From sequence record MK817115.1: a DNA stretch of 64,000 nt; one strand, 5' to 3'. The stretch comes from Escherichia phage vB_EcoM_phAPEC6. The notes beneath the pieces were generated by a model, which saw only the letters and a program-made list of their open reading frames with translations, did not search any database and was not told the DNA's origin. The position numbers were made by a program, and so were the translations under genes. The first letter of the stretch is position 1. Every line of letters starts with the position of its first letter. This document shows positions 41,546-53,936 of this stretch, piece by piece.

Positions 41546-41567
41546 TGTTGTTAGTACTGCAAAGTTA

Positions 41568-42386: not shown

Positions 42387-42473
42387 TTTAATTTCTCTCT
42401 TTTTGTTAGGAAGGGAACCATTCCCCTCACTTGATGTAAACTATTATACAGTACTAAGATACTTTGTCAATAC
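42387..42473 (-). promoter_or_regulatory. promoter / 5' stem-loop / RBS cassette
   Basis: TTGACA-16-TATAAT and GGGAACCATTCCC hairpin. Confidence 0.6.
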
Positions 42474-42749
42474 TTAAGTATTGTAAATGTCGTGAATAGT
42501 GATAAAGTTTTTACGACCGTAAACATGTAAATCAGTATCAATGTAGTGCTTATCAAGTACATCCTCGACGCTTAAAGCCGTGTCGTGAATATCTTCATAG
42601 AATTGTGGATCTACAATCTTACTTAAATCATCCGGCGTTAACTTATCATTGAGCCATTGCACCGCCTGGATATCTGCATCACGTTTCCAGTCTTCCAGGT
42701 TAGTAGTCAGTACTTGCTCGATTTCGTTAGCTGTCAGTAGAATCCGCAT
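42474..42749 (-). CDS. hypothetical protein
   Basis: ORF-track ORF; cassette upstream. Confidence 0.55.
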   Translation of the reverse strand: MRILLTANEIEQVLTTNLEDWKRDADIQAVQWLNDKLTPDDLSKIVDPQFYEDIHDTALSVEDVLDKHYIDTDLHVYGRKNFITIHDIYNT

Positions 42750-42838
42750 TTTAATTTCTCTCTTTGTTAGGTGGGGAACTATTCCCCACTTGATGTAAAA
42801 TATTATACAGTACTAAAAACTATTGTCAAACTATTTTA

Positions 42839-43039
42839 TCAAATTGTTTCCCATTTCATGTTACCCGCTTTACGCTGTGAAACAGGAATAAACATGTTAT
42901 TAATGTTACTAATATAACCGACCTGTAAGTCACGCTGTGAACCATACGCCCGACTTGCTGCATTTTTAGCACCGCGTTCTGATTTATAAACGCCGCTGGA
43001 TACTGTAAAGCCTACTACACCGAAAGTAAAATGTTTCAT
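42839..43039 (-). CDS. hypothetical protein
   Basis: ORF-track ORF behind tandem promoters. Confidence 0.5.
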   Translation of the reverse strand: MKHFTFGVVGFTVSSGVYKSERGAKNAASRAYGSQRDLQVGYISNINNMFIPVSQRKAGNMKWETI

Positions 43040-43250
43040 TTTGTATTCCTCTTTGTGGTTGATGTAAGTATTATACTCGTTTAATTTCTATTGTCAAACT
43101 ATTTTATCAGGGGAGGTTTTCGTATGTCTTACTCCTGGACTACTTAACGGGGTTACTTATTTCGTTCCCCGTCCTGATGTAAAACATTATACTTGATTCT
43201 AAGTACAATGCAAGTACTTTTTAAAAATAGTTTTCAGTACTTGATAGTAC
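43040..43250 (-). promoter_or_regulatory. tandem promoters separated by ~80-nt structured leader element
   Basis: two -35/-10 pairs; between them ACGGGG..CCCCGT and CAGGAG..CTCCCCTG stems; element recurs near 49950 and 52910. Confidence 0.5.
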
Positions 43251-43356
43251 TAGCCACCAGCATATAATAGATACATTTATGCACCCTGTGGGTTAGATTG
43301 TTTCTATGCATATATAATAGCAAAGGGACTGACCGGAGTCAATCCCTTTTTTAAAT
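43245..43356 (+). ncRNA. conserved intergenic element, candidate small RNA with bidirectional terminator (copy 3)
   Basis: same core and terminator hairpin as copies 1 and 2. Confidence 0.3.
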
Positions 43357-43360
43357 CTTT

Positions 43361-43510
43361 TTAAACTTGTTTTGGGTTGCGATATGTGATAGCGTTCGGG
43401 TACATTTGTTTAATGTTATTCCATGCCTGGTTAACATTGTAACCACTTGATCGAATCAGTTGGTTACTTCCTACGCCCTGAAACACTACTTCGAATAAGA
43501 ATTCTTTCAT
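43361..43510 (-). CDS. small hypothetical protein (49 aa)
   Basis: hand-translated ORF, ATGA overlap with upstream gene; below track cutoff. Confidence 0.35.
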   Translation of the reverse strand: MKEFLFEVVFQGVGSNQLIRSSGYNVNQAWNNIKQMYPNAITYRNPKQV

Positions 43511-43677
43511 GCTGCAATCCCCTCTGATTTACCTTTACGCCAGGCGTTAGCCAGTTCATTACGTTGCCATACATCCAATGCAATGTATAGTTTAGCAGTA
43601 TCCCCTTTAGGGTATTCGCCAGTAGTGCCTAACCGATAAAACAGATCTTTCAGTACTGATAATTCTACTTGGATCAT
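43507..43677 (-). CDS. small hypothetical protein (56 aa)
   Basis: hand-translated ORF in operon. Confidence 0.35.
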   Translation of the reverse strand: MIQVELSVLKDLFYRLGTTGEYPKGDTAKLYIALDVWQRNELANAWRKGKSEGIAA

Positions 43678-43766
43678 TGTATTACTCCTGATTGTGTTAG
43701 TACTTCTACGATGGCATGAATGATCATAAGTACAGCTAACACAACAATCATCGGATTCATTTGCAT
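43674..43766 (-). CDS. small hydrophobic peptide (30 aa)
   Basis: MQMNPMIVVLAVLMIIHAIVEVL; AAGGAG RBS; overlapping stop/start with next ORF. Confidence 0.35.
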   Translation of the reverse strand: MQMNPMIVVLAVLMIIHAIVEVLTQSGVIQ

Positions 43767-43783
43767 AAGCTGTACTCCTTCTA

Positions 43784-43996
43784 TTAATCTTTCAGCCAAT
43801 GATCTTGAATGAATTTTTCACAGAATCCCTGTTTCATAGATTCTAACAGGCGTTCACGGTGAGCGGCGGCATATTGCTCAGTACTATGCGTTACGCCAGG
43901 TTGATAACGTGAAACACCGTCCGGTCCGATATATTGAACATCCCACGGTTTTTCGTTAGTATCAGACCATTTACGAACGATTAGTTGACCTTGCAT
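43784..43996 (-). CDS. hypothetical protein
   Basis: ORF-track ORF; cassette upstream. Confidence 0.55.
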   Translation of the reverse strand: MQGQLIVRKWSDTNEKPWDVQYIGPDGVSRYQPGVTHSTEQYAAAHRERLLESMKQGFCEKFIQDHWLKD

Positions 43997-44081
43997 GTTT
44001 CTTTCCTCTTAGTGGGGAGAATCATTTCTCCCCTTCATGTAAACTATTATACAGTACTATAATCTATTGTCCAGTACTTTT

Positions 44082-44270
44082 TTACAGTTTATGAATCAAT
44101 TCTTTATCTAAGCGATAGCGTACATTATTAATGGTAACAGCATTATTTTTAATGCTACGCTGTACTGGCCCACCAGCAATAACAAACGTTGCTTTATTAC
44201 CCCGAACAATGATAGCACTACCAGGATTGCCAAAATCATCTTGTACTAAAATACTTGATAAGTTTTCCAT
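44082..44270 (-). CDS. hypothetical protein
   Basis: start at Met3 behind AAGAGG RBS (track ORF to 44276). Confidence 0.5.
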   Translation of the reverse strand: MENLSSILVQDDFGNPGSAIIVRGNKATFVIAGGPVQRSIKNNAVTINNVRYRLDKELIHKL

Positions 44271-44348
44271 TTTCATTTCCTCTTAGTAGGGGAAGACGTT
44301 TCCCCTTGATGTAAGTACTATAACAGTACTGGAAACTAAATGCAAGTA

Positions 44349-44705
44349 CTACGATAAAATCATGATAGGATATTCACTATCGATCAGTACTTCAAATCCA
44401 AAACTTTCATACCATTCTTTAAGATTAAAGGCGTTATCTTCTCCCGTATCGCATTCTAAAATGATACAATCTGAATCATCGGCGGCATCAATAAAGGCGT
44501 TCATCAATTCCGTACCTTCACCATTACCCCGACTAGCAGGATCAACATAAAGAGAATCAATAAACGCTACACGGTCATAATCAAGATCCGGTGCAATGAT
44601 TCCACGTTTAACAAACCAGTACTGCAATTGTGCTACTTTGCCCTGTACTTGATAGCCAGTGATCTCGCCATTGTCAGTAGTACGCGTGGTATGTTGTATT
44701 CCCAT
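44349..44705 (-). CDS. GNAT-family N-acetyltransferase
   Basis: motif A-like RGNGEGTELMNAF; consensus TTGACA-16-TATAAT promoter and GAGGA RBS. Confidence 0.55.
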   Translation of the reverse strand: MGIQHTTRTTDNGEITGYQVQGKVAQLQYWFVKRGIIAPDLDYDRVAFIDSLYVDPASRGNGEGTELMNAFIDAADDSDCIILECDTGEDNAFNLKEWYESFGFEVLIDSEYPIMILS

Positions 44706-44768
44706 GATTTCTATCCTCAGTTAAGATATAAAATATTATACACTATCTTTCAGTACTGTCAATACTTT

Positions 44769-45026
44769 TTATCTCATAGATCTATGCCAACAATTACGCG
44801 GATCTCTTTTAAAAGTACTATCATGATCCTCCTGGCAAGTTATGCAATACTTACATCCCTTAACAGCCTGGCGGCGATTCTCAGGGATTTTATCGCCACA
44901 GTCGAGGCAATGTATCAGTGATTCTATTTGTGCGTTAATTTGCTTTCTAGCGTGGTTTACGGCGGCCTGAATCACTGCGTTAATCTCGTCTTGCTCGGCC
45001 CCGTCTTTCGCGAATCCTACAGCCAT
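44769..45026 (-). CDS. TraR/DksA-family C4 zinc-finger protein
   Basis: CLDC-x17-CITC with IPENRR between cysteines. Confidence 0.6.
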   Translation of the reverse strand: MAVGFAKDGAEQDEINAVIQAAVNHARKQINAQIESLIHCLDCGDKIPENRRQAVKGCKYCITCQEDHDSTFKRDPRNCWHRSMR

Positions 45027-45223
45027 TATTTTAACTTTTTTCTGTCATTGATTAATGCTTTCAGTACTATACTAATGATTTGCAATGATTCATCAATAAC
45101 TATAAAATTATTTTCTTTCATTAGATGATAGTTACCATTGATATTATATTCTAACGAGTACTGTTTACGTTTAATTTTTGATAATGTTTCTATTTGTTTT
45201 TGTACTGATTTCATGCTAATCAT
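45026..45223 (-). CDS. hypothetical protein
   Basis: ORF-track ORF; stop overlaps start of the zinc-finger gene. Confidence 0.45.
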   Translation of the reverse strand: MISMKSVQKQIETLSKIKRKQYSLEYNINGNYHLMKENNFIVIDESLQIISIVLKALINDRKKLK

Positions 45224-45328
45224 TGTTAAACGTCCTGTAACGCATTCTAACGAGATAAACGGTTTAGTACTGGCATTGTATAGGGTAATGGATTAAAGCC
45301 CACCAGCGTTAACCAGTGGGCTATAATC

Positions 45329-45472
45329 TTACATCTTGCGGATAATCTTAACAGTATCTTTCACCGATTTACCGTTTTGCTGACATTGTTCGATCATCGC
45401 GTATTGTTCTGCGGTCAGATCCTCGCCAGTTTTTGCCAGTACTGCATCGATGAATGAATCTAGTGCGATCAT
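45329..45472 (-). CDS. small hypothetical protein (47 aa)
   Basis: hand-translated ORF between cassette and terminator hairpin AGCCCAC..GTGGGCT. Confidence 0.4.
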   Translation of the reverse strand: MIALDSFIDAVLAKTGEDLTAEQYAMIEQCQQNGKSVKDTVKIIRKM

Positions 45473-45570
45473 TTTGTTTCTCTCTTAGGTTAAGTTAACT
45501 ACTGTTTATAAAACTTATTATACAGTACTATCAAACTATGTCAATATCTTTAATAGTACTGGTAATATAT

Positions 45571-45741
45571 TTTAGCGGTAGTCGTCGTATGCTTTATTCA
45601 CCTGGCGAATGTAACTTTCAAAGGCTTCGTCTACCGTTTCATACTCCCGAACATAATCACCATAGGAAACTACATACATCCCTTTTTGATCTTCAAACGT
45701 CATGATGATAGAATCCAGGCCGATGATTTCAGTTTTTGCGA
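45571..45741 (-). CDS. small hypothetical protein (56 aa)
   Basis: hand-translated ORF preceded by cassette. Confidence 0.4.
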
Positions 45742-45832
45742 TGATAGCCATTTTTAATTCCTTAGTAGTGTAGTTGATAAAACTTATTATACAGTACTAT
45801 CAAACTATGTCAATAGTACTGTGATAATATTT

Positions 45833-46045
45833 TTAGTTAATGATAGTCAGTGTAAAATTGTAATCCCCTGCCTGGTATAGTACTTTGTCGCCGAACGTAC
45901 CAACACGTTTCATATTGCAATAGATACCCATAACACTTTTTACATCTTTGATATTCCGAACGCCTGTGATATCCTTGTTGAAATTTTCATGATCAGAAAA
46001 TAAAACTTGTTTTGCATTTTTCAGTACAGTGCAGATATTAGCCAT
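45833..46045 (-). CDS. hypothetical protein
   Basis: ORF-track ORF; cassette upstream. Confidence 0.55.
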   Translation of the reverse strand: MANICTVLKNAKQVLFSDHENFNKDITGVRNIKDVKSVMGIYCNMKRVGTFGDKVLYQAGDYNFTLTIIN

Positions 46046-46138
46046 TTTGATTTCTCTTTGTTAGTGGGGAGAACTATTCTCCCCTTGATGTAACTTATTA
46101 TACAGTACTATAATCTATTGTCAAACTATTTTTTAATA
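46046..46138 (-). promoter_or_regulatory. promoter / 5' stem-loop / RBS cassette
   Basis: TTGACA variant, GGGGAGAACTATTCTCCCC hairpin, AAAGAGAAA RBS. Confidence 0.6.
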
Positions 46139-46480
46139 TTATTCAAAATCTTCTGGACCGGACTGATAATCATCTTCACCGTATGCACTTTCTAACTTCT
46201 CGCCAGTGTGATCATCAGTTAGTGAGTCATCCTCATAGTTCACGTCTACGCCCGTGATGTAAAACTGGCTATCGTCTGGATCATTGAAATTAATTTTCTG
46301 AATGTTTACAATAACGGTATTGATGCCCAGGACACCGCCATCAGCAGTTACAAAGTACTGATAGTTTTCACAACCGCCTGTATTGAAACCGTAATTAATT
46401 TCGGCCCGACCATCATTTAAACGCAGTGCCTGGGCGATGATTTCGTTTTCAAAGTTAGATTGAGCAATTGAGATAGTCAT
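46139..46480 (-). CDS. hypothetical acidic protein
   Basis: start at Met22 (MTISIAQ); track ORF begins at TTG inside leader. Confidence 0.55.
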   Translation of the reverse strand: MTISIAQSNFENEIIAQALRLNDGRAEINYGFNTGGCENYQYFVTADGGVLGINTVIVNIQKINFNDPDDSQFYITGVDVNYEDDSLTDDHTGEKLESAYGEDDYQSGPEDFE

Positions 46481-46564
46481 GATTCGTTTCCTTATTACCA
46501 GGGGAAACCGTTTCCCCTCTCGATGTAAAACATTATACGCCAATTGAGATAGTTTGCAAGTACT

Positions 46565-46690
46565 TTTTAAAAATAGTTTTCAGTACTCAATACTTATATA
46601 ATAGATACACTTATGCACCCGGTGGGCTAGTGAGCTATCTCTCAATGAATATATAATAGCAAAATGGCTGACCGAAGTCAACCACTTTTT
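46565..46690 (+). ncRNA. conserved intergenic element, candidate small RNA with bidirectional terminator (copy 4)
   Basis: same architecture, hairpin variant GGCTGACCGAAGTCAACC. Confidence 0.3.
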
Positions 46691-46694
46691 TCAT

Positions 46695-46829
46695 TTATTT
46701 TTTAGCTTTCAGTACTGCCGCCTTTCGCGTCATGCCTTGCTTAATGTACTCCTTTACTTTCGCTTTACGTGCTTTCGCTTTATCTGCTTTCGTTTTAGGA
46801 GTACTGTAAATTAAACCGTTAGGATTCAT
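46695..46829 (-). CDS. small lysine-rich hypothetical protein (44 aa)
   Basis: hand-translated ORF. Confidence 0.35.
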   Translation of the reverse strand: MNPNGLIYSTPKTKADKAKARKAKVKEYIKQGMTRKAAVLKAKK

Positions 46830-46919
46830 TTAAATCACCATAAAGAATAGATAGGTTACTAACAATGCCGCGATCAATGCACCGATCACCGCTGAACTGT
46901 AATAAGCTAATGATTTCAT
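46830..46919 (-). CDS. small hydrophobic peptide (29 aa)
   Basis: MKSLAYYSSAVIGALIAALLVTYLFFMVI. Confidence 0.3.
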   Translation of the reverse strand: MKSLAYYSSAVIGALIAALLVTYLFFMVI

Positions 46920-47068
46920 TTTTTAGCCTGGAAGTAATGTTTAATTTGTGCGGCGGTCAGTGCACAATTACGCAGGAAGTTTTCTGTATAACTGCGGCGA
47001 GTACTGAAAGAGAATTGACCTTTGCCGTTACCGATAGTAACATCAAACCGAGCGTTGTATTGTTTCAT
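46916..47068 (-). CDS. hypothetical protein
   Basis: start at Met11 (MKQYNARF) after cassette; track ORF to 47098. Confidence 0.5.
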   Translation of the reverse strand: MKQYNARFDVTIGNGKGQFSFSTRRSYTENFLRNCALTAAQIKHYFQAKK

Positions 47069-47149
47069 TTTGTTTCTCCTGTTATTGGGGAGAATCATTT
47101 CTCCCCTTCATGTAAAACATTATACAGTACTAAAAACTAATTGCAAGTA
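47069..47149 (-). promoter_or_regulatory. promoter / 5' stem-loop / RBS cassette
   Basis: TTGCAA -35, TATAAT, GGGGAGAATCATTTCTCCCC hairpin. Confidence 0.6.
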
Positions 47150-47296
47150 CTATTTTTTAGATTTACGCAAACTTTCTACCATCTCAGGAGTAAGGCCAGG
47201 CGGGTAGGAAACCACTTCATCAACGAAACGTAAAGGGAATACCCCAGCGAAAGGTGAACATGCTTTCTTAGTATTACTCTTTTTTGATGCTTTCAT
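47150..47296 (-). CDS. small hypothetical protein (48 aa)
   Basis: hand-translated ORF with cassette upstream. Confidence 0.35.
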   Translation of the reverse strand: MKASKKSNTKKACSPFAGVFPLRFVDEVVSYPPGLTPEMVESLRKSKK

Positions 47297-47365
47297 TTCA
47301 TATTCCTTAATTAGTGGAGAGAATCATTTCTCCCCTTCATGTAAAACATTATACGCGTTTAAAAA

Positions 47366-47575
47366 CTAATTGCAAGTATTATTTGAAAGTAAATGCTCAT
47401 ACGCTGCATTAACTACGTTTTCAATAACCGACTGTACAGAAAGATCCCCCACGTCCTGGCTATAGTAGAAATCGCTTACAGTACTATCATCGTATGCAAA
47501 TACTTTACCAGGATCTGCATCAATCACATACATATTAACCTTTAAGATGTCGATCTTATCCTGTACAGTAAGCAT
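47366..47575 (-). CDS. hypothetical protein
   Basis: ORF-track ORF; AAGG RBS. Confidence 0.5.
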   Translation of the reverse strand: MLTVQDKIDILKVNMYVIDADPGKVFAYDDSTVSDFYYSQDVGDLSVQSVIENVVNAAYEHLLSNNTCN

Positions 47576-47580
47576 ATTAA

Positions 47581-47853
47581 TTAACCTTTTAAGTACTGGC
47601 TTAAGTAGTCTTGTTGATCTTCGGTGATTGCAGCCATCTTCCCTAGTACTGGATTGATGATATAATCCCCTGTAACGTCCTGTAACGCATTCTCAGGCGG
47701 TTTAACGGCTGGGGTAGCCATAGCCATTGCCTGGACTTGTTCGACGCTGTAACGCTCATAAAGGCGGCATTCTTCCGGTGTTAACATAGCATCAGTACGC
47801 TTCATCGGTTTAATGATGCTTTCGATCTCATTCAGTACTTGATTAACGTTCAT
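47581..47853 (-). CDS. hypothetical protein
   Basis: ORF-track ORF. Confidence 0.5.
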   Translation of the reverse strand: MNVNQVLNEIESIIKPMKRTDAMLTPEECRLYERYSVEQVQAMAMATPAVKPPENALQDVTGDYIINPVLGKMAAITEDQQDYLSQYLKG

Positions 47854-47904
47854 GGTATAATCCCCAATATAAGCGGCCTAAATCGACCGCTAACGATGTT
47901 TTGA

Positions 47905-48174
47905 TTAATAGGTGTATGGTTGACGCTCAAACAATGAATAGACGTTATACGCCCCGCTTATGGGCTTCGCTGGTAAATCAATTTTATATTGTTCACGCTT
48001 AAAGATAATAAAACGGCAATTGTTTTTAACATCAAAATTGATTGAACGTTCCAGGAGTTTACCATCGTGCACAAATACAAGATAACCGCTCGCTACTTGT
48101 TTTGTAGTACTGGTTGCAACCATAGACCGCCGAACATGTGTACCTGCATCAATTAAAGTACTGATATTTTTCAT
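47905..48174 (-). CDS. hypothetical protein
   Basis: ORF-track ORF. Confidence 0.5.
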   Translation of the reverse strand: MKNISTLIDAGTHVRRSMVATSTTKQVASGYLVFVHDGKLLERSINFDVKNNCRFIIFKREQYKIDLPAKPISGAYNVYSLFERQPYTY

Positions 48175-48254
48175 TATACTATCTTCTTAAGTTAATTTAA
48201 TTTCTTTCCCCTATGCAGACACTATATCAAAGTATCTGCATAAAGTAAAGCTAA

Positions 48255-48599
48255 TTAAAGATCTTTTTTGCGTTTAACATCAGTTACCGAACTGTAAACA
48301 GTGATATTATTGTCACGGCAAAAACGGGAAAGATAAGAACCGCGTAAAAACTCTTTATCTTCCATATTAATAACCTTGCTAAATTCTTCCATTGCTACAG
48401 TGTCAAAGTGATCCCCGTATCCATATTGGAACGGCACGTTTACTACTTCAATAAAATTACCATCAATTTCTACGTCTACACTTAAAGAGAAATAAGTGTT
48501 ACCATATGAAGCCTGGAACCAACGCCGAGCGGCAATATGTACAACTTCAACAGAAGACAGGTTGATATTTTGTTTTGCGATAGTGTTGATATTAGCCAT
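48255..48599 (-). CDS. hypothetical protein (YGYG/DVKRKKD paralog 2)
   Basis: paralog of 42063..42386 (GNTY, YGYG, C-terminal DVKRKKD). Confidence 0.55.
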   Translation of the reverse strand: MANINTIAKQNINLSSVEVVHIAARRWFQASYGNTYFSLSVDVEIDGNFIEVVNVPFQYGYGDHFDTVAMEEFSKVINMEDKEFLRGSYLSRFCRDNNITVYSSVTDVKRKKDL

Positions 48600-48680
48600 T
48601 TTAATTTCCTCTTAGTTGTCTTGATAAAATCTATTATGCCAGTACTATCAAACTATGTCAATAGTACTGTGATAATATTT

Positions 48681-48824
48681 TTACTTACTTTTTGCTTTCT
48701 TTGCTGCTTCCACCTGGTCGGCCCATTCTTTACCCCATACTTGTAAATTATAATGGTACTGGCAAAGTGCAACGCCCCGCTTTAAACCAGTAATAGATTT
48801 TTTACCACATTGACAAGTTTTCAT
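48681..48824 (-). CDS. small Cys-rich protein (47 aa), possible zinc ribbon
   Basis: CQCG...CQYH spacing; cassette upstream; hand-translated. Confidence 0.35.
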   Translation of the reverse strand: MKTCQCGKKSITGLKRGVALCQYHYNLQVWGKEWADQVEAAKKAKSK

Positions 48825-48910
48825 ATTAGTTTCCTCATTATCAGGGAGAACCATTTCTCCCCTTGATGTAATGTATTATACTTTATCTGATTTACTTTGC
48901 AAGTACTTTT

Positions 48911-49138
48911 TTAATTTAATTCATCCAGGCAAAGGATACGCTCAACGCCCAAATCAGTTAAACTAATCGACGGCACTTGATAGGTTTCAATGTATGCTAC
49001 ACTTGCCCACTGACCGAACTCATTAACGGCCCATTTATCCATTGCAAAATGCAATTCCGCACCTTTCTTATTAGTAATTACAGCAACAGTAGAAGAATTG
49101 CCAGTAGTACCAGTTACGCGAGTGATTACGATAGCCAT
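48911..49138 (-). CDS. hypothetical protein
   Basis: start at Met20 (MAIVITRV); track ORF to 49195 reads through leader. Confidence 0.5.
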   Translation of the reverse strand: MAIVITRVTGTTGNSSTVAVITNKKGAELHFAMDKWAVNEFGQWASVAYIETYQVPSISLTDLGVERILCLDELN

Positions 49139-49422
49139 TGTTTTAATTCCTTTGATTTGGAAGGAGAACCGTTTCCCCCTCTCGATGTAAAACATTATAC
49201 GCTAATCTCTTAATCGTGCAAGTACTTTTTATTACTTTTTGCAAAATACTTTAAACGCACTCAATCGCGTTCTTACAGCCTTAACGCCACCAGCTAGGGC
49301 AATGCATCAGATAATCAGTTTAATGCGTTAGAATCGATTCTAGGCGGTGCTGGTGGCCTGGTAAACGTTAAACACAAAAAAGCCCACTTATGCAGTGGGC
49401 TAGTGATTCAGTACTTTAATTG

Positions 49423-49905
49423 TTATGCTTCCACTTTGCGATGAGCTTCGATCCATTCCTCGCGAGTCATACCGCTGGAGTTAATCGCATCCAGTACTAC
49501 CGCAATGCAGTTACCACGCACCGGAATCAGATATTCTTCCCCGTTGTCCAGTACTACCGCTACACGTTTTTGAATCCATTTTTTAGGCTTAGATTCCGGC
49601 TTATCTTCCCCATACTTAACCGCCAGGGCTTTTTGTGCCATCTCTGTAACTACTTCCAGATCCAATCCAACTACTGCCGCCTGAATACTTTCAATTGTTG
49701 CTTGTAGTTCTGCTTCACGGGCCGCCTTTGCCGCTTCAATTTCTGCCGCTTTATTTGCTTGTAGTTCTTTCGCAGTACTATAAGCGATGTTAAAATTATT
49801 GCGTACCGCTTTCATGGTATCGTTATCCAGATCAGCCAGGATCTCTGCCGCGACGTTAGTTTCATTTGCTACCAGTGCTTTGATGAATGATTTTACATTA
49901 GCCAT
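49423..49905 (-). CDS. hypothetical Ala-rich coiled-coil protein
   Basis: start at Met6 behind GAGGA RBS; tandem promoters with structured leader upstream. Confidence 0.5.
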   Translation of the reverse strand: MANVKSFIKALVANETNVAAEILADLDNDTMKAVRNNFNIAYSTAKELQANKAAEIEAAKAAREAELQATIESIQAAVVGLDLEVVTEMAQKALAVKYGEDKPESKPKKWIQKRVAVVLDNGEEYLIPVRGNCIAVVLDAINSSGMTREEWIEAHRKVEA

Positions 49906-50103
49906 TTTATAAATCCTCAATTAAAGTTTAGTTTACGTTGGTTAGTGTATCAAAGTTTTCTCGACGTGTCCAGTTTTTCGTTCGACTTACTGGCGGTCTA
50001 CTTAGTGCTCCCCGTCTTGATGTAATATATTCTACGCCTTTTTGCGGTAATGTCAACTATTTTTTAAAACTATTTTCAAAGTATCTCAGTACTACGATAC
50101 TAC

Positions 50104-50132
50104 AAAAACAAAAAAAGCCCACCAGGTGGGCT
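50104..50132 (-). terminator. rho-independent terminator
   Basis: AGCCCACC..GGTGGGCT hairpin followed by T-run on minus strand. Confidence 0.6.
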
Positions 50133-50138
50133 ATGTAC

Positions 50139-50369
50139 TTAATCAGTAATTAAAACATTAAACACTTTATCATTTAACGTTATGGGTGTACTGCTACCAG
50201 GCTTGAGATCAGTTAGTACACCTGCAATAGCTTTTTCATTGGCGACCTTTCCAGTGTCCAACAGTACTACAGTACTGATAAGATTAACGCTCGTTTCAAT
50301 ATCATAATGCACGGCGTTAAGTAGTTGTGTAGTACTGCTTTCGTTAAGTAAAACAATTCGCTTAGTCAT
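50139..50369 (-). CDS. hypothetical protein
   Basis: ORF-track ORF. Confidence 0.5.
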   Translation of the reverse strand: MTKRIVLLNESSTTQLLNAVHYDIETSVNLISTVVLLDTGKVANEKAIAGVLTDLKPGSSTPITLNDKVFNVLITD

Positions 50370-50390
50370 GATGTTACCCCGTAGTATCTA

Positions 50391-50690
50391 TCAACGGCAA
50401 TTAATAACGCCAGTATGAGTTACTTTCTCAGTATCCATAACAGTGACCGAACCGCGTTTAGTACTTGCATCGTAATAAATTGTCGTGCTACCGTTTTCGT
50501 CTTCTTCATGGAACGGGCCGTTTTTAAATGCTTCCGGCTGGATCTCTAAATCCTTTAAAACAATCTCGCCAGTACTTTCATCGGTCATTGCAACAGTGCA
50601 CTGAATGAATTTTTCACTACTTACATCTAATGACGCATTAACAGCGAAAGAGGAAACAGATAAAGCCAGGGCGATGATTGCAATTTTCAT
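50391..50690 (-). CDS. secreted/periplasmic hypothetical protein
   Basis: classical signal peptide MKIAIIALALSVSSFAVNA with AXA site; two Cys; cassette upstream. Confidence 0.55.
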   Translation of the reverse strand: MKIAIIALALSVSSFAVNASLDVSSEKFIQCTVAMTDESTGEIVLKDLEIQPEAFKNGPFHEEDENGSTTIYYDASTKRGSVTVMDTEKVTHTGVINCR

Positions 50691-50775
50691 TTGATTATCC
50701 TTAGTTACCAGGGGGAACCGCTCCCCCCTTGCGATGTAAAATATTATACAGTACTAAAAACTAATTGCAAGTACT
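50691..50775 (-). promoter_or_regulatory. promoter / 5' stem-loop / RBS cassette
   Basis: TTGCAA, TATAAT, GGGGGAACCGCTCCCCCC hairpin. Confidence 0.6.
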
Positions 50776-51012
50776 TTATGATTTTTTATAAAACATTTCG
50801 GCAGTGATATTTTTACCCGTTGGTTGTACTTTATCCAGAATTTTTTGATGTCCAGGGCGACCAAATGAATAAGATCCGTAAACCGTAAACCAGTAGTTAC
50901 CCTCAGTGTTTACATGTACAGCACAATAGGGAACGCCCCGCGATTCATCACTAGTAAAGTGTGATACCGTACCCGTTACATTCGCAGACGTTGATTTGAT
51001 TTGTTCGACCAT
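50776..51012 (-). CDS. hypothetical protein
   Basis: ORF-track ORF; cassette upstream. Confidence 0.5.
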   Translation of the reverse strand: MVEQIKSTSANVTGTVSHFTSDESRGVPYCAVHVNTEGNYWFTVYGSYSFGRPGHQKILDKVQPTGKNITAEMFYKKS

Positions 51013-51120
51013 TTTCTTATTCCTTAGTTACCAGGGGAACCGCTCCCCCTATGCAAAACATTATACGCGTTTAAAAACTAATAGCAAGTATTTTAATAAA
51101 AAGTATTTGGAAAATAATTG

Positions 51121-51149
51121 TTGACAAGTGCATCCAGTACTGGCATAAT
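51121..51149 (+). promoter_or_regulatory. plus-strand sigma70-like promoter
   Basis: TTGACA-17-CATAAT; followed by CCCACCGGGTGC-containing ~100 nt and a terminator hairpin. Confidence 0.45.
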
Positions 51150-51262
51150 TACTACATCAAGACGAAACAGTCACTAACCCACCGGGTGCCGAGATCCGTC
51201 TATTAAATGATTCAGTACTAAAAAAAGAAAGGGGATCAATTGATCCCCTCGTTGTTATTTTG
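51150..51262 (+). ncRNA. candidate small RNA
   Basis: bounded by promoter above and GGGGATCAATTGATCCCC hairpin plus T-run; no ORF. Confidence 0.3.
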
Positions 51263-51476
51263 TAAGGTATAAACAGAAGTCACCTTTATTTGCTACGCCG
51301 CCAGTGTAACGCGAGGAATAGTTAGAAACGTCCTGGACTTCTGCTATTACCAGGGTATCATCATTCAATTCGTCGCAGAAGCAAACGGCTGGATCTTGTA
51401 CGCCGATATTGTCGGCATGTTCCCGCATAGATTTAACCAGTGCTTCAAGTTGGGAAAGAGTAGTGATATTAGCCAT
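51255..51476 (-). CDS. hypothetical protein
   Basis: start at Met11 (MANITTLSQ); track ORF to 51506. Confidence 0.5.
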   Translation of the reverse strand: MANITTLSQLEALVKSMREHADNIGVQDPAVCFCDELNDDTLVIAEVQDVSNYSSRYTGGVANKGDFCLYLTK

Positions 51477-51559
51477 TTTATTTTCCTCATTACCAGGGAG
51501 AACCATTTCTCCCCTTGATGTAAACTATTATACAGTACTAAAAACTAATTGCAAGTACT

Positions 51560-51841
51560 TTAACTGTAAGATCCGCAACGGTCGCAGTAGTGCCCCTCGT
51601 CATCGTCAACGAATTGACCAACGAAATTATCTACTTTCGCTTTCAGGTTATTATAATCGTTTTCTACTTCATTTAAACGCTTCTGGTAGTATTCCAGTGC
51701 TTTAAGATATGCCGCATCAGCAGTTTTCTCCTGCATAGCTAAATTCATGCCACGCGTTTCATCGTACAGCCAAAAACCATCGGTGCACTGGCTAATAGAT
51801 AATGACTTGCTTAGTACTGTATAGTTAATTACTTTACTCAT
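51560..51841 (-). CDS. hypothetical protein
   Basis: start at Met28 behind GAGGG RBS; track ORF to 51922 reads through GGCGGGG..CCCGCC hairpin. Confidence 0.5.
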   Translation of the reverse strand: MSKVINYTVLSKSLSISQCTDGFWLYDETRGMNLAMQEKTADAAYLKALEYYQKRLNEVENDYNNLKAKVDNFVGQFVDDDEGHYCDRCGSYS

Positions 51842-51899
51842 TAGATAAACCCTCAATAAAGGCGGGAACCATTCCCCGCCATTGTTACAGTACTGAATA

Positions 51900-52139
51900 T
51901 TACATTCCAACCATTGCAGCACGGATCGCAGTAGTGCTATACTTAAAGCCGTCCGGCGTTGTAGTAGTACCGTTGGCTTTTAATCTGCGGTACATGCATT
52001 CCGCTGCAATATCTTTAGTTCTACTTTGTGCGATACAACTTTGTGCAAGCCGATACAATGACTCACCGTTATTAATCCATAAGGAAACATTCCAATGAGT
52101 TTTGTTTTTGTGCCCGTTGTAAGTTTTAGTACTAGCCAT
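51900..52139 (-). CDS. hypothetical protein (THWNVSLWINN paralog 1)
   Basis: paralog of 53937..54176 (GHKNKTHWNVSLWINN, TPDGFKYSTTAIRAAMVGM). Confidence 0.55.
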   Translation of the reverse strand: MASTKTYNGHKNKTHWNVSLWINNGESLYRLAQSCIAQSRTKDIAAECMYRRLKANGTTTTPDGFKYSTTAIRAAMVGM

Positions 52140-52231
52140 TTTTTTTAATCCTCGTTTGAGCGGGGAACCACTCCCCGCCTCGATATAAAGTATTATACGC
52201 TTTTAAACTTAGTTTGCAAGTACTTTTTAAA
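52140..52231 (-). promoter_or_regulatory. promoter / 5' stem-loop / RBS cassette
   Basis: TTGCAA, TATAAT, GCGGGGAACCACTCCCCGC hairpin. Confidence 0.6.
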
Positions 52232-52843
52232 TTAATATTCGATTGATTCTACTACGCCATCAATAACATTGAATTGATATTCGTTACCCTCAATCAGTGC
52301 TGTAATGTTTTCAGTAGTGAATTGATCCTCATATGCATTCTCTAAATCACGGTACAACTTGCGGGATAATTCACGAATAGTTTCAGTGAGTAGTTCCTCA
52401 AGCTCATTAACTAACGTTTCTTGTTTTGCGGTTAAATCAGTGTAAGCCGATTCAATGTACCCGCTTACAGTGTTTTCATGCGAGTAGTGGGAGTGAGAAC
52501 GCTTTACACTCATCGCCAAATCATCTTCATTCAGCAGGTGACGGATTGAGCGATACTTAGTTAATGCTCTTACCTTGCGTAAAAACTTCACTGCGTCAAC
52601 GTGGTCAGTACTGATTGATGCACCGTCACCCTGGGACCAAAAACCACTGAATTGTATTTCAGCGTCATTAATGCCATATTCCGGCAATACTGTTTCTTTA
52701 TAGTGTTCAATTTCACTTTCAGAAAAATAATCGTCGTTTGAGTTTTTTTCACGTTCCCGAACCAGTTCGATAGCTGACGTTTTTTGTTCTGCGTTCAATT
52801 CAGAAAAATCCATAACATAAGTAGTAGTAGTGATAGTTTTCAT
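52232..52843 (-). CDS. hypothetical acidic protein (203 aa)
   Basis: ORF-track ORF, strongly Asp/Glu-rich; tandem promoters with structured leader upstream. Confidence 0.55.
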   Translation of the reverse strand: MKTITTTTYVMDFSELNAEQKTSAIELVREREKNSNDDYFSESEIEHYKETVLPEYGINDAEIQFSGFWSQGDGASISTDHVDAVKFLRKVRALTKYRSIRHLLNEDDLAMSVKRSHSHYSHENTVSGYIESAYTDLTAKQETLVNELEELLTETIRELSRKLYRDLENAYEDQFTTENITALIEGNEYQFNVIDGVVESIEY

Positions 52844-53060
52844 TTTGTAACCCTCATTCAGTAGTTTATGTAAGTATTATACGCTTTTAAAAACAATTGT
52901 CAAACTATTTTATCAGGGGAGTTTTTCGTGTGCCTTACTCCTGGGCTACTTAACGGGAAGTTACTTATTTCGTTCCCCGTCCTGATGTAAAACATTATAC
53001 GCCTTTAAACATAGTTTGCAAGTACTTTTTAAAAATAGTTTTCAGTACTGAATAGTAAAA
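52844..53060 (-). promoter_or_regulatory. tandem promoters separated by ~80-nt structured leader element (copy 2)
   Basis: near-identical to 43085-43170 element with compensatory stem changes. Confidence 0.5.
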
Positions 53061-53065
53061 AGGTA

Positions 53066-53094
53066 TTGACAGCACTATCCAGTACTGGTATAAT
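53066..53094 (+). promoter_or_regulatory. plus-strand consensus sigma70 promoter
   Basis: TTGACA-17-TATAAT; downstream CCCACCGGGTGC and GATACACTCCCGCACCC elements, no ORF. Confidence 0.45.
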
Positions 53095-53268
53095 ATACCC
53101 CATGACAACAGCTAACCCACCGGGTGCACAATTGTAACTGTACTAAACTACTTTTTCTATAGATACACTCCCGCACCCTATGGGCTACGGCTTATCTGCC
53201 AATGAATACATTATGCCAGTACTGACAAAATAAGTCAATACCGGCAATTGTAAAGATTTGTAAACTAC

Positions 53269-53499
53269 TTATACTGCAATCGCGTCCAGGCTATAATAAT
53301 AATAAGTGCCGTATTGGTGTACTTTATTACCTTTTATTTCAGTACTGAATGAATCCGAACGATTGGCATATGATGTTAATTTATAGTACTTTACTTTACT
53401 AATACGTTGCCATACACCGCAGATCCGCTGTAAGTAAGTAGTTTTATTTGTGGTAGTATCTTTTACGGCTTTCAATTCGATCATATACATAGTGGTCAT
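53269..53499 (-). CDS. hypothetical protein
   Basis: ORF-track ORF; AAGGAG RBS and cassette upstream. Confidence 0.55.
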   Translation of the reverse strand: MTTMYMIELKAVKDTTTNKTTYLQRICGVWQRISKVKYYKLTSYANRSDSFSTEIKGNKVHQYGTYYYYSLDAIAV

Positions 53500-53584
53500 T
53501 TTATTACTCCTTGCTTTAGTGGGGAACTATTCCCCACCTGATATAAAGTATTATACGCGTTTAAACTTAGTTTGCAAGTACTTT

Positions 53585-53851
53585 TTATTCAAGTACTGCG
53601 ATCTTTTTAATACGGTACACGGTCACGCGGTTGCCCTTTCGGTCGAGCTTTATTTCTACCACTCGACGCGATACACTATCAGGACTTTTCAACGCCGCTA
53701 ACCAGTACTGTAATGATCTGGCGGTACTACGCTTTACAATGGCCCAACGTTTACCACGTTCCGATTGTACGCCCATATCTTTAAACGTTGCCCCGTCCTG
53801 GCGTGCGGCGATCCGAGCTTGTTCACGCGTCGCAAAATACTTAATATTCAT
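53585..53851 (-). CDS. hypothetical protein (FATREQAR paralog 2)
   Basis: start at Met13 (MNIKYFATREQ); promoter region also paralogous to that of 41568..41963. Confidence 0.55.
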   Translation of the reverse strand: MNIKYFATREQARIAARQDGATFKDMGVQSERGKRWAIVKRSTARSLQYWLAALKSPDSVSRRVVEIKLDRKGNRVTVYRIKKIAVLE

Positions 53852-53936
53852 GCTGTTGCCCTTATCGTTGGTGTATGAATAAAACACTATTATAAAGTAC
53901 TATCGCAAAAAATGATAGTACTTTAAATAAATTCTA

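What the first reader, a model, noticed from the sequence alone, without database searches (positions are those of the whole stretch)
43040..53060. ~80-nt structured leader between tandem promoters, three copies
Upstream of 42839..43039, 49423..49905 and 52232..52843 two promoter units are separated by a conserved element (ACGGGG..CCCCGT stem and CAGGAG..CTCCCCTG stem on the mRNA strand). Copies 1 and 3 differ by substitutions and a small insertion that keep or extend the first stem (ACGGGGAA pairing with UUCCCGU), which suggests selection on RNA structure. Possible riboregulator or attenuator controlling three unrelated genes.
Basis: partly seen in the sequence, partly recalled or inferred. 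Interest (0 to 1): 0.55.

Follow-up and report, generated by a model that had tools for sequence, protein, structure and literature searches.

The report
Conserved early-leader RNA motif shared with T7
The three flagged sites are copies of a short structured RNA made from the first early promoters of this giant E. coli phage, and the same motif lies unannotated between promoters A1 and A2 of phage T7 and over 500 relatives, so it is probably a functional, undescribed element of unknown role.

Summary
The window is an Asteriusvirus (121Q-like) jumbo phage. Its minus strand from 36 to 56 kb is an array of sigma-70 early-promoter cassettes.

Exactly three copies of the element exist, at 43107-43147, 49965-50005 and 52913-52953.
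- Copies 1 and 3 are as described: promoter, ~75-nt element, then a perfect second promoter.
- Copy 2 lacks the first stem and has only a weak second promoter.
- The shared core is a linker UAAGUAGNC followed by a 4-5 bp hairpin with a conserved 16-17 nt loop (UAAGNCNNACGAAAA).

The same core occurs in several unrelated phage groups:
- Justusliebigvirus and Vequintavirinae phages, ahead of four further, different genes.
- Other jumbo phages of Klebsiella, Salmonella and Erwinia.
- At least 500 T7-group genomes. In T7 it lies at nt 548-590, between A1 and A2.

The hairpin covaries: 92.5% of cells are paired and 4 of 5 pairs show double changes. G·U pairs fit only the transcribed strand. Copy 2's core is 100% identical in genomes where its gene is 84-87% identical.

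No match was found in Rfam or to HK022 put, and the searchable papers give the sequence no function.

An attenuator reading is not supported. There is no terminator and no consistent masking of the ribosome-binding site. Function is inferred: probably a platform for a host factor on the first early transcript.

The parts
43186..43213 (-). Copy 1 upstream promoter P1 (-35 TTGCAT 43213-43208, -10 TATAAT 43191-43186); inferred TSS about 43180
   Evidence: Sequence; promoter list. The -35 matches only 3/6, so the consensus scan does not list it. An A/T-rich segment lies upstream.
43106..43180 (-). Copy 1 element, from the P1 start to CCUGAU
   Evidence: covariance-model hit at 43107-43147, 52.4 bits
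43147..43172 (-). Copy 1 hairpin A: ACGGGG / CCCCGU with a 14-nt loop
   Evidence: Folds. It starts at about +8/+9, about where the generic 5' hairpins of the other promoter units in this array start.
43136..43146 (-). Copy 1 linker UAAGUAGUCCA (family-wide UAAGUAGNC)
   Evidence: Invariant columns in alignment A2
43112..43135 (-). Copy 1 hairpin B: GGAG / CUCC with loop UAAGACAUACGAAAAC
   Evidence: covariation across 24 distinct sequences
43070..43097 (-). Copy 1 downstream promoter P2 (TTGACA-16-TATAAT, 12/12); inferred TSS about 43065, 115 nt after the P1 start
42839..43039 (-). 66-aa gene downstream of copy 1 (phrog_7744, unknown function)
50116..50132 (-). Intrinsic-terminator-like hairpin with T-run just upstream of copy 2's promoter
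50029..50056 (-). Copy 2 promoter (TTGACA-16-TAGAAT, 11/12); inferred TSS about 50023
49965..50023 (-). Copy 2 leader core. No hairpin A. Linker UAAGUAGAC at 50004-49996. Hairpin B CCAGU/ACUGG at 49993-49970 with loop AAGUCGAACGAAAA.
   Evidence: 54.5 bits. 59/59 identical in PBECO4, JP4 and SD-6, where the CDS is 84-87% identical.
49925..49953 (-). Weak promoter-like site (TTGATA-17-TAAACT, 9/12) where relatives carry a strong second promoter
   Evidence: comparison with Kae01 and Hallingskeid
49423..49905 (-). 160-aa gene downstream of copy 2 (phrog_27871, unknown function)
52994..53021 (-). Copy 3 upstream promoter P1 (TTGCAA-16-TATAAT, 10/12); inferred TSS about 52988
52912..52988 (-). Copy 3 element. 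Hairpin A ACGGGGA/UUCCCGU at 52980-52953. Linker at 52952-52942. Hairpin B GGAGU/ACUCC at 52941-52918.
   Evidence: 52.7 bits; 77/77 identical in PBECO4, JP4 and SD-6
52876..52903 (-). Copy 3 downstream promoter P2 (TTGACA-16-TATAAT, 12/12); inferred TSS about 52871, 117 nt after the P1 start
52232..52843 (-). 203-aa gene downstream of copy 3 (phrog_5162, unknown function)

Best explanation
**Shown.** The three sites are copies of one conserved RNA motif placed at the 5' end of transcripts from sigma-70 early promoters.
- The core is the linker UAAGUAGNC followed by a short hairpin (4-5 bp) with a conserved 16-17 nt loop, UAAGNCNNACGAAAA.
- Copies 1 and 3, and most relatives, have a variable hairpin directly in front of the core.
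- A second strong promoter usually follows.
- It is the same module as the A1-to-A2 interval of T7-group phages.
- It travels as a gene-less promoter cassette. The same promoter-element-promoter unit sits in front of at least six unrelated genes in four phage groups.
- The pairing is maintained on the transcribed strand only, and the core is under purifying selection.

**Inferred.**
- The phages carrying the motif belong to unrelated groups but all infect Enterobacterales and start infection with the host RNA polymerase. The conserved unpaired nucleotides are therefore most likely a binding platform for a host component: the elongating polymerase or its factors, an RNA-binding protein, or a ribonuclease.
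- The marginal stability of the hairpin on its own fits a structure that needs a partner.
- My preferred reading is that the element acts on the first, long, untranslated early transcript or on its transcription complex, giving protection or processivity of P1-initiated transcription at the onset of infection.
- I do not think it switches the adjacent gene.
- I hold the identity and RNA-level claims at about 0.85 and this particular mechanism at about 0.3. The overall confidence of 0.45 is a blend of the two.
For: **Identity of the window.** 98.5% identical to Escherichia phage 121Q.

**Copies in the window.** Three copies and no more.

**Same layout elsewhere.**
- Justusliebigvirus: muut, EmilieFrey, outra.
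- Vequintavirinae: A73, W70, A7_1, A5-4.
- These have different P1 and P2 promoters and different downstream genes.

**Link to T7.**
- Copy 2's core hits Yersinia phage phiA1122 at 553-587 with 91% identity, E = 2e-4 in 2.3 Gb.
- A pattern scan of IMG/VR returns about 30 T7-like contigs, including T7 itself.
- The 40-nt T7-type core is found in 501 phage records, 488 of them at 90% identity or more.
- In T7 it lies between the annotated A1 (498) and A2 (626) starts and is unannotated.

**Jumbo-phage relatives** Kae01, 7t3, Hallingskeid and L054 have P1, core and P2.

**Covariation of hairpin B.**
- 24 distinct sequences: 92.5% of cells paired, 4 of 5 pairs with changes on both sides, 21 such cells, 0/500 shuffles as good, slid controls 22-46% paired.
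- RNAalifold finds the same helix independently.
- Further compensatory variants exist inside Asteriusvirus (EJP2 UCCUG/CAGGA).

**Hairpin A plus B in T7-likes.** 94% paired, 5 pairs with double changes, 0/500 shuffles.

**Strand.** Ten G·U cells across hairpin B would be A·C mismatches on the other strand.

**Purifying selection.** Copy 2's core is 59/59 identical where its CDS is 84-87% and the upstream DNA 74-85% identical.

**Variation among 13 variants of the copy-1/3 type.** Most falls in the loops, the linker and the short unpaired 5' tail. In the stems there are two C-to-U changes that give G·U, one inserted G/C pair in muut, and the A/C site that makes or breaks the innermost pair of hairpin B.

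**Distance from hairpin B to the next -35** ranges from 2 to about 42 nt, and no second promoter follows in L043.
Against: - There are no transcript data. The start sites, read-through of P2 and any processing are all inferred.
- No binding partner is identified.
- A cis-protective role fits poorly with the element lying upstream of the further promoters. Transcripts from P2 (and from A2 and A3 in T7) would lack it, whereas T7's boxA lies downstream of all the early promoters (PMC3709561).
- Copy 2's unit is monocistronic and bracketed by terminator-like hairpins, so it has little need for processivity.
- The consensus hairpin is weak, with a folding term of -2.3 kcal/mol. Single-sequence folds of copies 1 and 3 are only about 1.8 sd better than shuffles.
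- Part of the apparent invariance in alignment A2 was imposed by the search pattern. Variants outside the pattern exist: 121Q copy 2 has AUGAAA, and EJP2 has CAAGUAG.
- The refactored genome T7.1 carries two substitutions inside the motif. From my own recollection of Chan, Kosuri and Endy 2005, it was viable, so the motif is probably not essential in the laboratory.
Confidence: 0.45

Rival explanations
1. A trans-acting small RNA or decoy. The upstream promoter exists only to make the ~75-120 nt structured RNA. That RNA is released by processing and titrates or mimics a host RNA or protein in the first minute of infection. In T7, from my own knowledge, RNase III cleaves at R0.3 and would release the leader. 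The downstream gene needs its own promoter because the cassette is a gene in its own right.
For: - The promoter-plus-element unit behaves as a gene-less cassette inserted ahead of at least six different promoter-gene units.
- A second promoter nearly always follows, so the downstream gene does not depend on P1.
- The conserved nucleotides are the unpaired ones.
- The element lies in the terminal repeats of the jumbo phages where these are annotated, and at the left end of T7. From my own knowledge of T7, that end enters the cell and is transcribed first.
Against: - No terminator or defined 3' end follows the element.
- No complementarity to a target could be tested. The E. coli genome search found nothing, but it is insensitive for short matches.
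- No extra copies of the loop's complement occur in the window.
- In L043 the element runs straight into boxA and the early genes without a second promoter.
Confidence: 0.25
2. One reading: an attenuator or riboregulator. The leader folds so as to terminate transcription from the upstream promoter, or to mask the ribosome-binding site of the adjacent gene, in response to a signal.
For: - Structured leader directly downstream of a promoter.
- In copy 3 the linker GUAGCCC can pair with GGGUUAC at the gene's ribosome-binding site, and copy 1 has the matching U/A pair.
Against: - No terminator-like hairpin with a T-run lies between P1 and the genes.
- Predicted Shine-Dalgarno accessibility is similar in P1 and P2 transcripts: 0.62 vs 0.59 for copy 1 and 0.36 vs 0.43 for copy 3. 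The linker-SD pairing is absent with the other four downstream genes.
- In copies 1 and 3 a consensus promoter downstream bypasses the element.
- The linker is invariant even in T7, where the first start codon is over 300 nt away.
- No Rfam riboswitch match.
Confidence: 0.08
3. A DNA-level element: an upstream activating, UP-like or spacing sequence for the downstream promoter, or a protein-binding site in the early promoter cluster.
For: - The element nearly always lies upstream of a strong promoter.
- In most T7-likes the A-tract and the 3' arm of the hairpin end 2 nt before the -35 of A2.
- The sequence ahead of A3 resembles the 3' half of the loop (sequence).
- T7.1 annotates a 'conserved -45 base' there.
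Against: - The distance to the next -35 varies from 2 to about 42 nt. Copy 2 has at most a weak second promoter, and none follows in L043.
- Compensatory changes and ten G·U cells that work only on the transcribed strand point to RNA.
- Each P2 has its own A/T-rich upstream segment.
Confidence: 0.1
4. No function of its own: a leader remnant that hitch-hikes with promoter cassettes shuffled by recombination between repeated promoters, in the manner of PeSL cassettes.
For: - The array consists of repeated promoter plus stem-loop cassettes.
- Conserved blocks break off within the flanking promoters, and the downstream genes differ, as in PeSL-mediated shuffling (PMC2839356).
Against: - The core is far better conserved than its flanks: 59/59 against 84-87% for the CDS.
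- At least 90% identity in 488 of 501 T7-group records, with unrelated surrounding leader sequence.
- Base-pair covariation.
Confidence: 0.05

Closest known systems
Early promoter cluster A1/A2/A3 of phage T7 and its untranslated leader (NC_001604, starts at 498, 626 and 750)
   Same: - Homologous. The T7 sequence at 548-590 carries the same linker and the same hairpin loop.
- The hairpin stem sits in the same alignment columns and differs from the window copies only by compensatory changes: CCUG/CAGG in T7, against CCAGU/ACUGG in copy 2 and GGAG/CUCC in copies 1 and 3.
- Tandem strong sigma-70 promoters are spaced 115-128 nt apart.
- The initial transcribed sequence is similar: AUCGAGAGGG in T7 A1, against ACAUCGAGAGGGG in many promoters of the window.
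- A hairpin directly precedes the linker.
   Different: - In T7 one long operon follows three promoters and a functional boxA antitermination site (PMC3709561).
- Here each copy heads a short unit, and no boxA is present.
- Hairpin A has an unrelated sequence.
- In most T7-likes hairpin B abuts the -35 of A2; here it ends 14 nt before the -35 of P2.
- The motif is not annotated in T7 records.
PeSL cassettes (promoter-early stem-loops) of T4-type phages (Arbiol et al. 2010, PMC2839356)
   Same: - Repeated intergenic cassettes made of an A/T-rich tract, a strong sigma-70 promoter and a GGGG...CCCC stem-loop, upstream of small genes of unknown function.
- Conserved blocks break off within the promoters, and neighbouring genes are swapped between phages.
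- Two hairpins in the window enclose a -35 box.
   Different: - PeSL stem-loops are described as terminators or attenuators for upstream transcription. Here the usual stem-loop lies after the start site, and the flagged element adds a second, sequence-conserved hairpin that PeSLs lack.
- These phages are not T4-type.
- Mini-circles were not examined.
put RNAs of phage HK022 (PMC9378689)
   Same: - About 70 nt.
- Two stem-loops.
- Encoded directly downstream of an early sigma-70 promoter.
- Acts without phage proteins, through a host component.
   Different: - No sequence or model similarity. The best hit of the motif model on the whole HK022 genome is 8.7 bits, E = 1.6.
- put has long, bulged stems, whereas here the stems are short and the loops large.
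- Antitermination was not tested. It is unlikely to be general, because from my own knowledge T7 A1 transcripts stop at the early terminator.
5'-terminal stabilising stem-loops of bacterial mRNAs (for example the ompA leader; my own knowledge, Emory, Bouvet and Belasco 1992)
   Same: Hairpin A, and the generic GGGGAA/UUCCCC hairpins of 19 of 24 promoter units, start about 7-9 nt from the inferred 5' end.
   Different: - A stabiliser needs no conserved loop sequence.
- It does not explain the invariant linker and hairpin-B loop.
- Copy 2 and Hallingskeid lack hairpin A altogether.
nut/rrn-type antitermination leaders (boxA, boxB)
   Same: - A small hairpin with an A-rich loop in an early leader.
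- In contig L043 hairpin B lies 17 nt before a boxA-like CGCUCUUUAACAA.
- T7-likes carry boxA downstream.
   Different: - No boxA in the window beyond chance level.
- The loop is 16-17 nt, not a pentaloop.
- No N-like protein is implied.

Membership tests
T7-group A1-A2 leader motif (unnamed; defined here) | Linker UAAGUAGNC followed 3-4 nt later by a 4-5 bp hairpin whose loop reads (A)UAAGNCNNACGAAA(A/G)N | tested here: met
   All three window copies align without gaps to T7, phiA1122 and 20 other distinct sequences. They score 52-54 bits with the model, but they were part of its training alignment, so those scores are by construction.
T7-group A1-A2 leader motif (unnamed; defined here) | Hairpin pairing kept by compensatory change | tested here: met
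   GGAG/CUCC (copies 1 and 3) and CCAGU/ACUGG (copy 2) occupy the same columns as CCUG/CAGG in T7. 92.5% of cells are paired, 4 of 5 pairs have double changes, and 0/500 shuffles do as well.
T7-group A1-A2 leader motif (unnamed; defined here) | Lies 19-52 nt downstream of the start of a sigma-70 early promoter, on the transcribed strand | tested here: met
   The linker starts 34 nt (copies 1 and 3) or 19 nt (copy 2) after the inferred start. Start sites are inferred from the -10 position, not measured.
T7-group A1-A2 leader motif (unnamed; defined here) | A hairpin directly 5' of the linker, and a further promoter 3' of the motif | tested here: inconclusive
   Met by copies 1 and 3. Copy 2 has neither a 5' hairpin nor a strong second promoter. 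The same is true of some relatives: Hallingskeid lacks the hairpin, and L043 lacks both.
PeSL regulatory cassettes | Strong sigma-70-like early promoter with an A/T-rich upstream tract and an adjacent GGGG...CCCC stem-loop, in an intergenic position before small genes of unknown function | tested here: met
   compared with the description in PMC2839356.
PeSL regulatory cassettes | The stem-loop acts as terminator or attenuator for upstream transcription | not testable with these tools
   The stem-loops here lie after the inferred start and lack a T-run. Function would need reporter assays.
PeSL regulatory cassettes | Cassettes mediate gene shuffling by recombination between promoters; mini-circles form | tested here: inconclusive
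   The same element precedes six different genes, and similarity ends inside P2 in most Asteriusvirus genomes. Mini-circles are not testable here.
HK022 put RNA | About 70-nt RNA of two stem-loops just downstream of an early promoter | tested here: met
   Position, size and two hairpins for copies 1 and 3, compared with the description.
HK022 put RNA | Sequence and structure similarity to putL/putR | tested here: not met
   The best hit of model R1 on the whole HK022 genome is 8.7 bits, E = 1.6, and is not at PL or PR.
HK022 put RNA | Binds the beta' zinc-binding domain of RNA polymerase and suppresses pausing and termination | not testable with these tools
   Needs in vitro transcription or structural work.
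Transcription attenuator / riboswitch | Intrinsic terminator, or a ribosome-binding-site-masking helix, alternative to the conserved structure | tested here: not met
   No terminator-like site between P1 and the genes. Shine-Dalgarno accessibility is not consistently lower in P1 transcripts.
Any Rfam family | Match to a curated covariance model | tested here: not met
   - No match at gathering score in the whole window.
- Only chance-level matches near copy 1.
- None up to E = 10 in T7 380-1000.
nut/rrn antitermination leader | boxA (GCUCUUUAACAA) near the hairpin | tested here: not met
   8 matches with up to 2 mismatches in the window against 7.9 expected, and none near the copies.

The most novel reading that the evidence does not exclude
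The motif is an undescribed host-directed RNA. It is the first product of infection in T7-group phages and in several unrelated giant and mid-sized enterobacterial phages. Its conserved unpaired nucleotides capture a specific host component before any phage protein exists. That component could be the elongating RNA polymerase, a ribonuclease, or an RNA-sensing defence or regulatory factor. The motif spreads between phage families as a gene-less promoter cassette.
Probability: 0.3. Interest if true: 0.85.

Novelty: new variant of a known kind. Interest (0 to 1): 0.62.

Why it matters
T7 is one of the best-studied genomes in biology. Yet the 40 nt between its A1 and A2 promoters appear to hold a structured RNA motif that is not annotated in the T7 records examined, is absent from Rfam, and is given no function in the searchable literature.

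- **Conservation.** The motif is at 90% identity or more across about 500 T7-group genomes.
- **Spread.** It is shared with 350-kb jumbo phages and 140-kb myoviruses that have no other evident relationship.
- **Meaning if functional.** It would point to a host interaction that many virulent enterobacterial phages need at the very start of infection.
- **Testability.** It is directly testable in T7 with existing genetics.
- **Mobility.** It also shows that promoter cassettes without a gene are exchanged between phage families.
- **Engineering.** This is relevant to phage engineering, where these promoter regions are routinely cut and refactored.

Tried and rejected
- **Rfam.** Gathering thresholds on the whole window, and permissive thresholds around copy 1 and on T7 380-1000, gave nothing.
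- **tRNA/tmRNA scan.** None found.
- **Exact-pattern scans for the copy-1/3 type.** IMG/VR returned only 121Q itself. Metagenomes returned four Asteriusvirus-type contigs plus chance hits L007 and L012.
- **Chance hits of the family pattern.** L025 and L033 lie in coding DNA and were excluded.
- **CMSTMSU.** Its copies carry many single-base indels, the record is flagged unverified, and it was excluded.
- **Coding potential.** Variants differ by 1-4 nt indels, and the SD-like AGGAG is followed by ATA or ACA, not a start codon, so I rejected a micro-ORF. Small opposite-strand CDS calls in JP4 and SD-6 overlap the element and are not credible for the same reason.
- **Closing helix AUCAGG/CCUGAU of the Y-shaped fold.** It shows no variation in 13 variants and has no counterpart in other groups, so it is unsupported.
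- **Masking of the ribosome-binding site by the linker.** Seen only with one or two of six downstream genes.
- **put homology.** Rejected.
- **boxA in the window.** Chance level.
- **Similarity or complementarity to E. coli genomes.** No match, but the search cannot see short matches.
- **Targets of the loop inside the window.** None.
- **A possible fourth copy at 56340-56371** (9 bits). It is not a copy.
- **Literature searches.** Searches on Asteriusvirus promoters, T7 leader function and the core sequence itself found no description of the motif.
- **Resemblance of the loop to the 16S rRNA 1492-1505 region.** This is recalled from memory. It involves a shared hexamer only, which is expected by chance, so I dropped it.

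Full report
**What the window is**

A 601-nt stretch around copy 1 is 98.5% identical to Escherichia phage 121Q, and related to PBECO4, G17 and other Asteriusvirus jumbo phages of about 350 kb.

On the minus strand, between about 36 and 56 kb, lie some 24 near-consensus sigma-70 promoter units of the form aaaAGTACTTGCAa-N16-TATAAT-gtttt-ACATC. Each precedes a small gene. In 19 of the 24, a hairpin GGGGAA-loop-UUCCCC starts about 7 nt after the inferred start, with compensatory variants such as GGAGAA/UUCUCC and GCGGGAA/UUCCCGC.

This arrangement resembles the promoter-early stem-loop (PeSL) cassettes described for T4-type phages (PMC2839356).

**The observation**

- A promoter, with inferred starts at 43180 and 52988.
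- A 75-77 nt element with a first hairpin: ACGGGG/CCCCGU in copy 1, and ACGGGGA/UUCCCGU in copy 3.
- A second hairpin, GGAG/CUCC, around a 14-16 nt loop.
- A 12/12 consensus promoter whose start lies 115-117 nt after the first.

Copy 2 (start about 50023) shares the first 15 nt, the linker and the second hairpin's loop. It has lost the 3' half of the first hairpin. Its second stem is CCAGU/ACUGG. Only a weak 9/12 promoter-like site follows it.

A covariance model of the core finds these three sites at 52-54 bits and nothing else above 9 bits in the window. The three sites were in the model's training alignment, so the informative part is the absence of further sites. The marginal site at 56340-56371 is not a copy. 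The three downstream genes belong to different PHROG families of unknown function.

**Relatives with the copy-1/3 form**

The 77-nt element is found in 44 phage records. Forty-four is the count for the phages collection at the sensitivity used.
- All sequenced Asteriusvirus relatives have it. There are two places per genome, and four where the terminal repeat is written twice.
- It also occurs at 87-95% identity in Justusliebigvirus phages (muut, EmilieFrey, outra).
- It occurs in some Vequintavirinae (A73, W70, A7_1, A5-4).

In every case the layout is promoter, element, promoter. The flanking promoters differ; A7_1 uses TTGACA-N17-TAAGAT promoters on both sides. The downstream genes also differ, with six different genes in all.

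Similarity to copy 1 ends inside P2 in most Asteriusvirus genomes. The unit therefore behaves like a cassette that carries no gene.

Among 13 distinct variants, most differences lie in the two loops, the linker and the short unpaired 5' tail. In the stems there are two C-to-U changes that create G·U pairs, an inserted G/C pair in muut, and the A/C site that makes or breaks the innermost pair of hairpin B. On its own this is weak evidence for structure.

**The link to T7**

A search with copy 2's leader hit T7-group Yersinia phages at 91% over 35 nt (phiA1122 553-587, E = 2e-4). It also hit jumbo phages of Klebsiella (fENko-Kae01), Salmonella (7t3, SE_PL, PHA46) and Erwinia (Hallingskeid).

In phiA1122 and T7 the match lies between the annotated starts of the host-polymerase promoters A1 (498) and A2 (626), and it ends 2 nt before the -35 of A2. 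The T7 sequence there reads ...CCGGAUAAGUAGACAGCCUGAUAAGUCGCACGAAAAACAGGUA|TTGACA.

Further searches extend the family.
- A degenerate pattern scan of IMG/VR returned about 30 T7-like contigs and one further jumbo phage.
- The 40-nt T7-type core occurs in 501 phage records, 488 at 90% identity or more. The most frequently named hosts are all enterobacteria: Escherichia, Klebsiella, Salmonella, Yersinia, Enterobacter, Shigella, Citrobacter and Serratia.
- The rest of the A1 leader differs widely between T7-like subgroups, while the core stays nearly constant.
- Kae01, L054 and Hallingskeid again show promoter, core, promoter.
- One contig, L043, has promoter and core followed by a boxA-like sequence, with no second promoter.

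**RNA-level structure**

On 24 distinct sequences, the hairpin after the linker is paired in 92.5% of cells. Four of its five pairs change on both sides: C-G/G-C, C-G/G-C/U-A, U-A/A-U/U·G and G-C/G·U/A-U. No shuffle out of 500 reaches the observed values. Sliding the partner strand by 1-3 columns drops pairing to 22-46%.

RNAalifold finds the same helix without guidance. The window's GGAG/CUCC and CCAGU/ACUGG fall in the same columns as T7's CCUG/CAGG. A further compensatory version, UCCUG/CAGGA, occurs in the Asteriusvirus EJP2.

The stems were not part of the search pattern, so this covariation is not an ascertainment artefact. The invariance of the linker and loop in that alignment is partly imposed by the pattern. 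However, the BLAST result and variants outside the pattern show that the conservation is real though not absolute.

Ten G·U cells would be A·C mismatches on the other strand, so the pairing belongs to the transcribed strand.

Directly 5' of the linker, most members have another hairpin of unrelated sequence.
- CCGG/CCGG, CCAG/CUGG, CCAC/GUGG and GCUG/CGGC in T7-likes.
- GGGAUG/CAUUCC in Kae01.
- ACGGGG/CCCCGU here.

In the T7-like subset, both helices together are 94% paired, with five pairs changed on both sides. Copy 2, Hallingskeid and L043 lack this first hairpin.

The consensus hairpin is thermodynamically weak (-2.3 kcal/mol), which suggests it needs a partner or has internal loop structure.

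**Selection**

- In PBECO4, JP4 and SD-6, copy 2's core is 59/59 identical. Its gene is 84-87% identical, its promoter 93-94% and the upstream DNA 74-85%.
- Copy 1 is 96-97% identical against 81-95% for its flanks.
- Copy 3 is 100% against 97-98%, which is not informative.

**What it is not**

- There is no Rfam match in the window or in the T7 leader, and no tRNA-like gene.
- It is not coding. Variants differ by indels of 1-4 nt, and no start codon follows the SD-like AGGAG.
- It is not a put RNA by sequence. The best hit on the whole HK022 genome is 8.7 bits, although position, size and the two-hairpin layout are analogous.
- The window has no boxA beyond chance.
- No terminator-like site lies between the upstream promoter and any of the three genes.
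- Predicted accessibility of the ribosome-binding site is essentially the same in long and short transcripts and inconsistent across 15 contexts. An attenuator or translational riboregulator of the adjacent gene is therefore not supported.
- A promoter-upstream DNA element is unlikely. The distance to the next -35 ranges from 2 to about 42 nt, some members have no second promoter, and the covariation is strand-specific.

**Most likely mechanism (inference)**

The carriers belong to unrelated phage groups. They all infect Enterobacterales and begin infection with the host polymerase. The motif sits in the first transcripts: at the left end of T7, and inside the direct terminal repeats of the jumbo phages where these are annotated.

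The conserved unpaired nucleotides are therefore best explained as a platform for a host component. I favour an action in cis on the upstream-promoter transcript or its transcription complex, giving protection or processivity of a long untranslated early leader. T7's leader is known to carry a functional boxA antitermination site downstream of the early promoters (PMC3709561).

A trans-acting decoy RNA is nearly as likely. It explains better why the element sits upstream of further promoters and moves as a gene-less cassette. I put about 0.85 on 'conserved RNA-level motif homologous to the T7 A1-A2 interval', about 0.3 on the cis reading and about 0.25 on the trans reading.

The motif is probably not essential in the laboratory. 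The refactored genome T7.1 carries two substitutions in it, one in the linker and one giving a U·G in the stem. From my own recollection, T7.1 was viable.

**Novelty**

The T7 records examined do not annotate the motif. The core sequence appears in three searchable papers, none of which, by title and abstract, concerns its function. Four further literature searches found no description. Older subscription-journal literature on T7 could not be searched, so prior notice of the conservation cannot be excluded.

I class it as a new variant of a known kind, namely promoter-proximal RNA elements of phage early transcripts. It sits inside PeSL-like promoter cassettes.

Noticed in passing
window 1-64000, both strands: AGTACT is the commonest hexamer of the whole window: 271 copies against about 21 expected from base composition. 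It occurs in coding and non-coding DNA. There are none in 24-28 kb or 32-36 kb. It is built into the promoters (aaAGTACTtgca; ttAGTACTgTATAAT).
   Followed up: partly
window 36000-56000, minus strand: 19 of 24 promoter units carry a hairpin GGGGAA-(UAG/AUGG/ACGG)-UUCCCC starting about 7 nt after the inferred start, with compensatory variants. The same kind of hairpin follows promoters in Vequintavirinae and Justusliebigvirus loci. The two P2 promoters of copies 1 and 3 lack it.
   Followed up: partly
window 43322-43349 and 46661-46688, minus strand: 12-bp hairpins that enclose a -35 box (AAAGGGATTGACTCCGGTCAGTCCCTTT followed by TATTAT), with compensatory differences between the two copies. This is the PeSL subclass in which the stem-loop overlaps the -35.
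   Followed up: no
window 43241-43342 and 53066-53238: - Upstream of copies 1 and 3 lie a third promoter-like site on the same strand (43342-43314; 53238-53210).
- There is also a near-perfect promoter on the opposite strand (43241-43268, 11/12; 53066-53094, 12/12 with TG).
- Both regions share a motif cccaYagggtgc..gtatctat. It also occurs in Klebsiella phage Kae01 (L022, about 1170-1210) in the opposite orientation.
   Followed up: no
L058 (T7.1) 251-289 against L057 (T7): The refactored genome T7.1 changed two bases inside the T7 copy of the motif to make a HindIII site (GACAGCCTG to GAAAGCTTG). One change hits the invariant C of the linker. The other turns a C-G pair into U·G.
   Followed up: partly
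L043 (IMG/VR contig 2030936005_000003), about 4080-4200: A T7-like early leader with a single promoter. The motif has no first hairpin, and a boxA-like CGCTCTTTAACAA lies 17 nt after the hairpin.
   Followed up: no
L013 (Escherichia phage CMSTMSU, MH494197): This record, flagged UNVERIFIED_ORG, differs from its relatives by many single-base deletions in homopolymer runs within the element and its flanks. This looks like sequencing error.
   Followed up: no
L021 (phiA1122) 660-700 and the T7 equivalent: The sequence just upstream of T7-group promoter A3 (CACATAAGGTGAAACAAACGG|TTGACAAC) resembles the 3' half of the motif ahead of A2. This suggests A2 and A3 arose by duplication that included part of the motif.
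   Followed up: no
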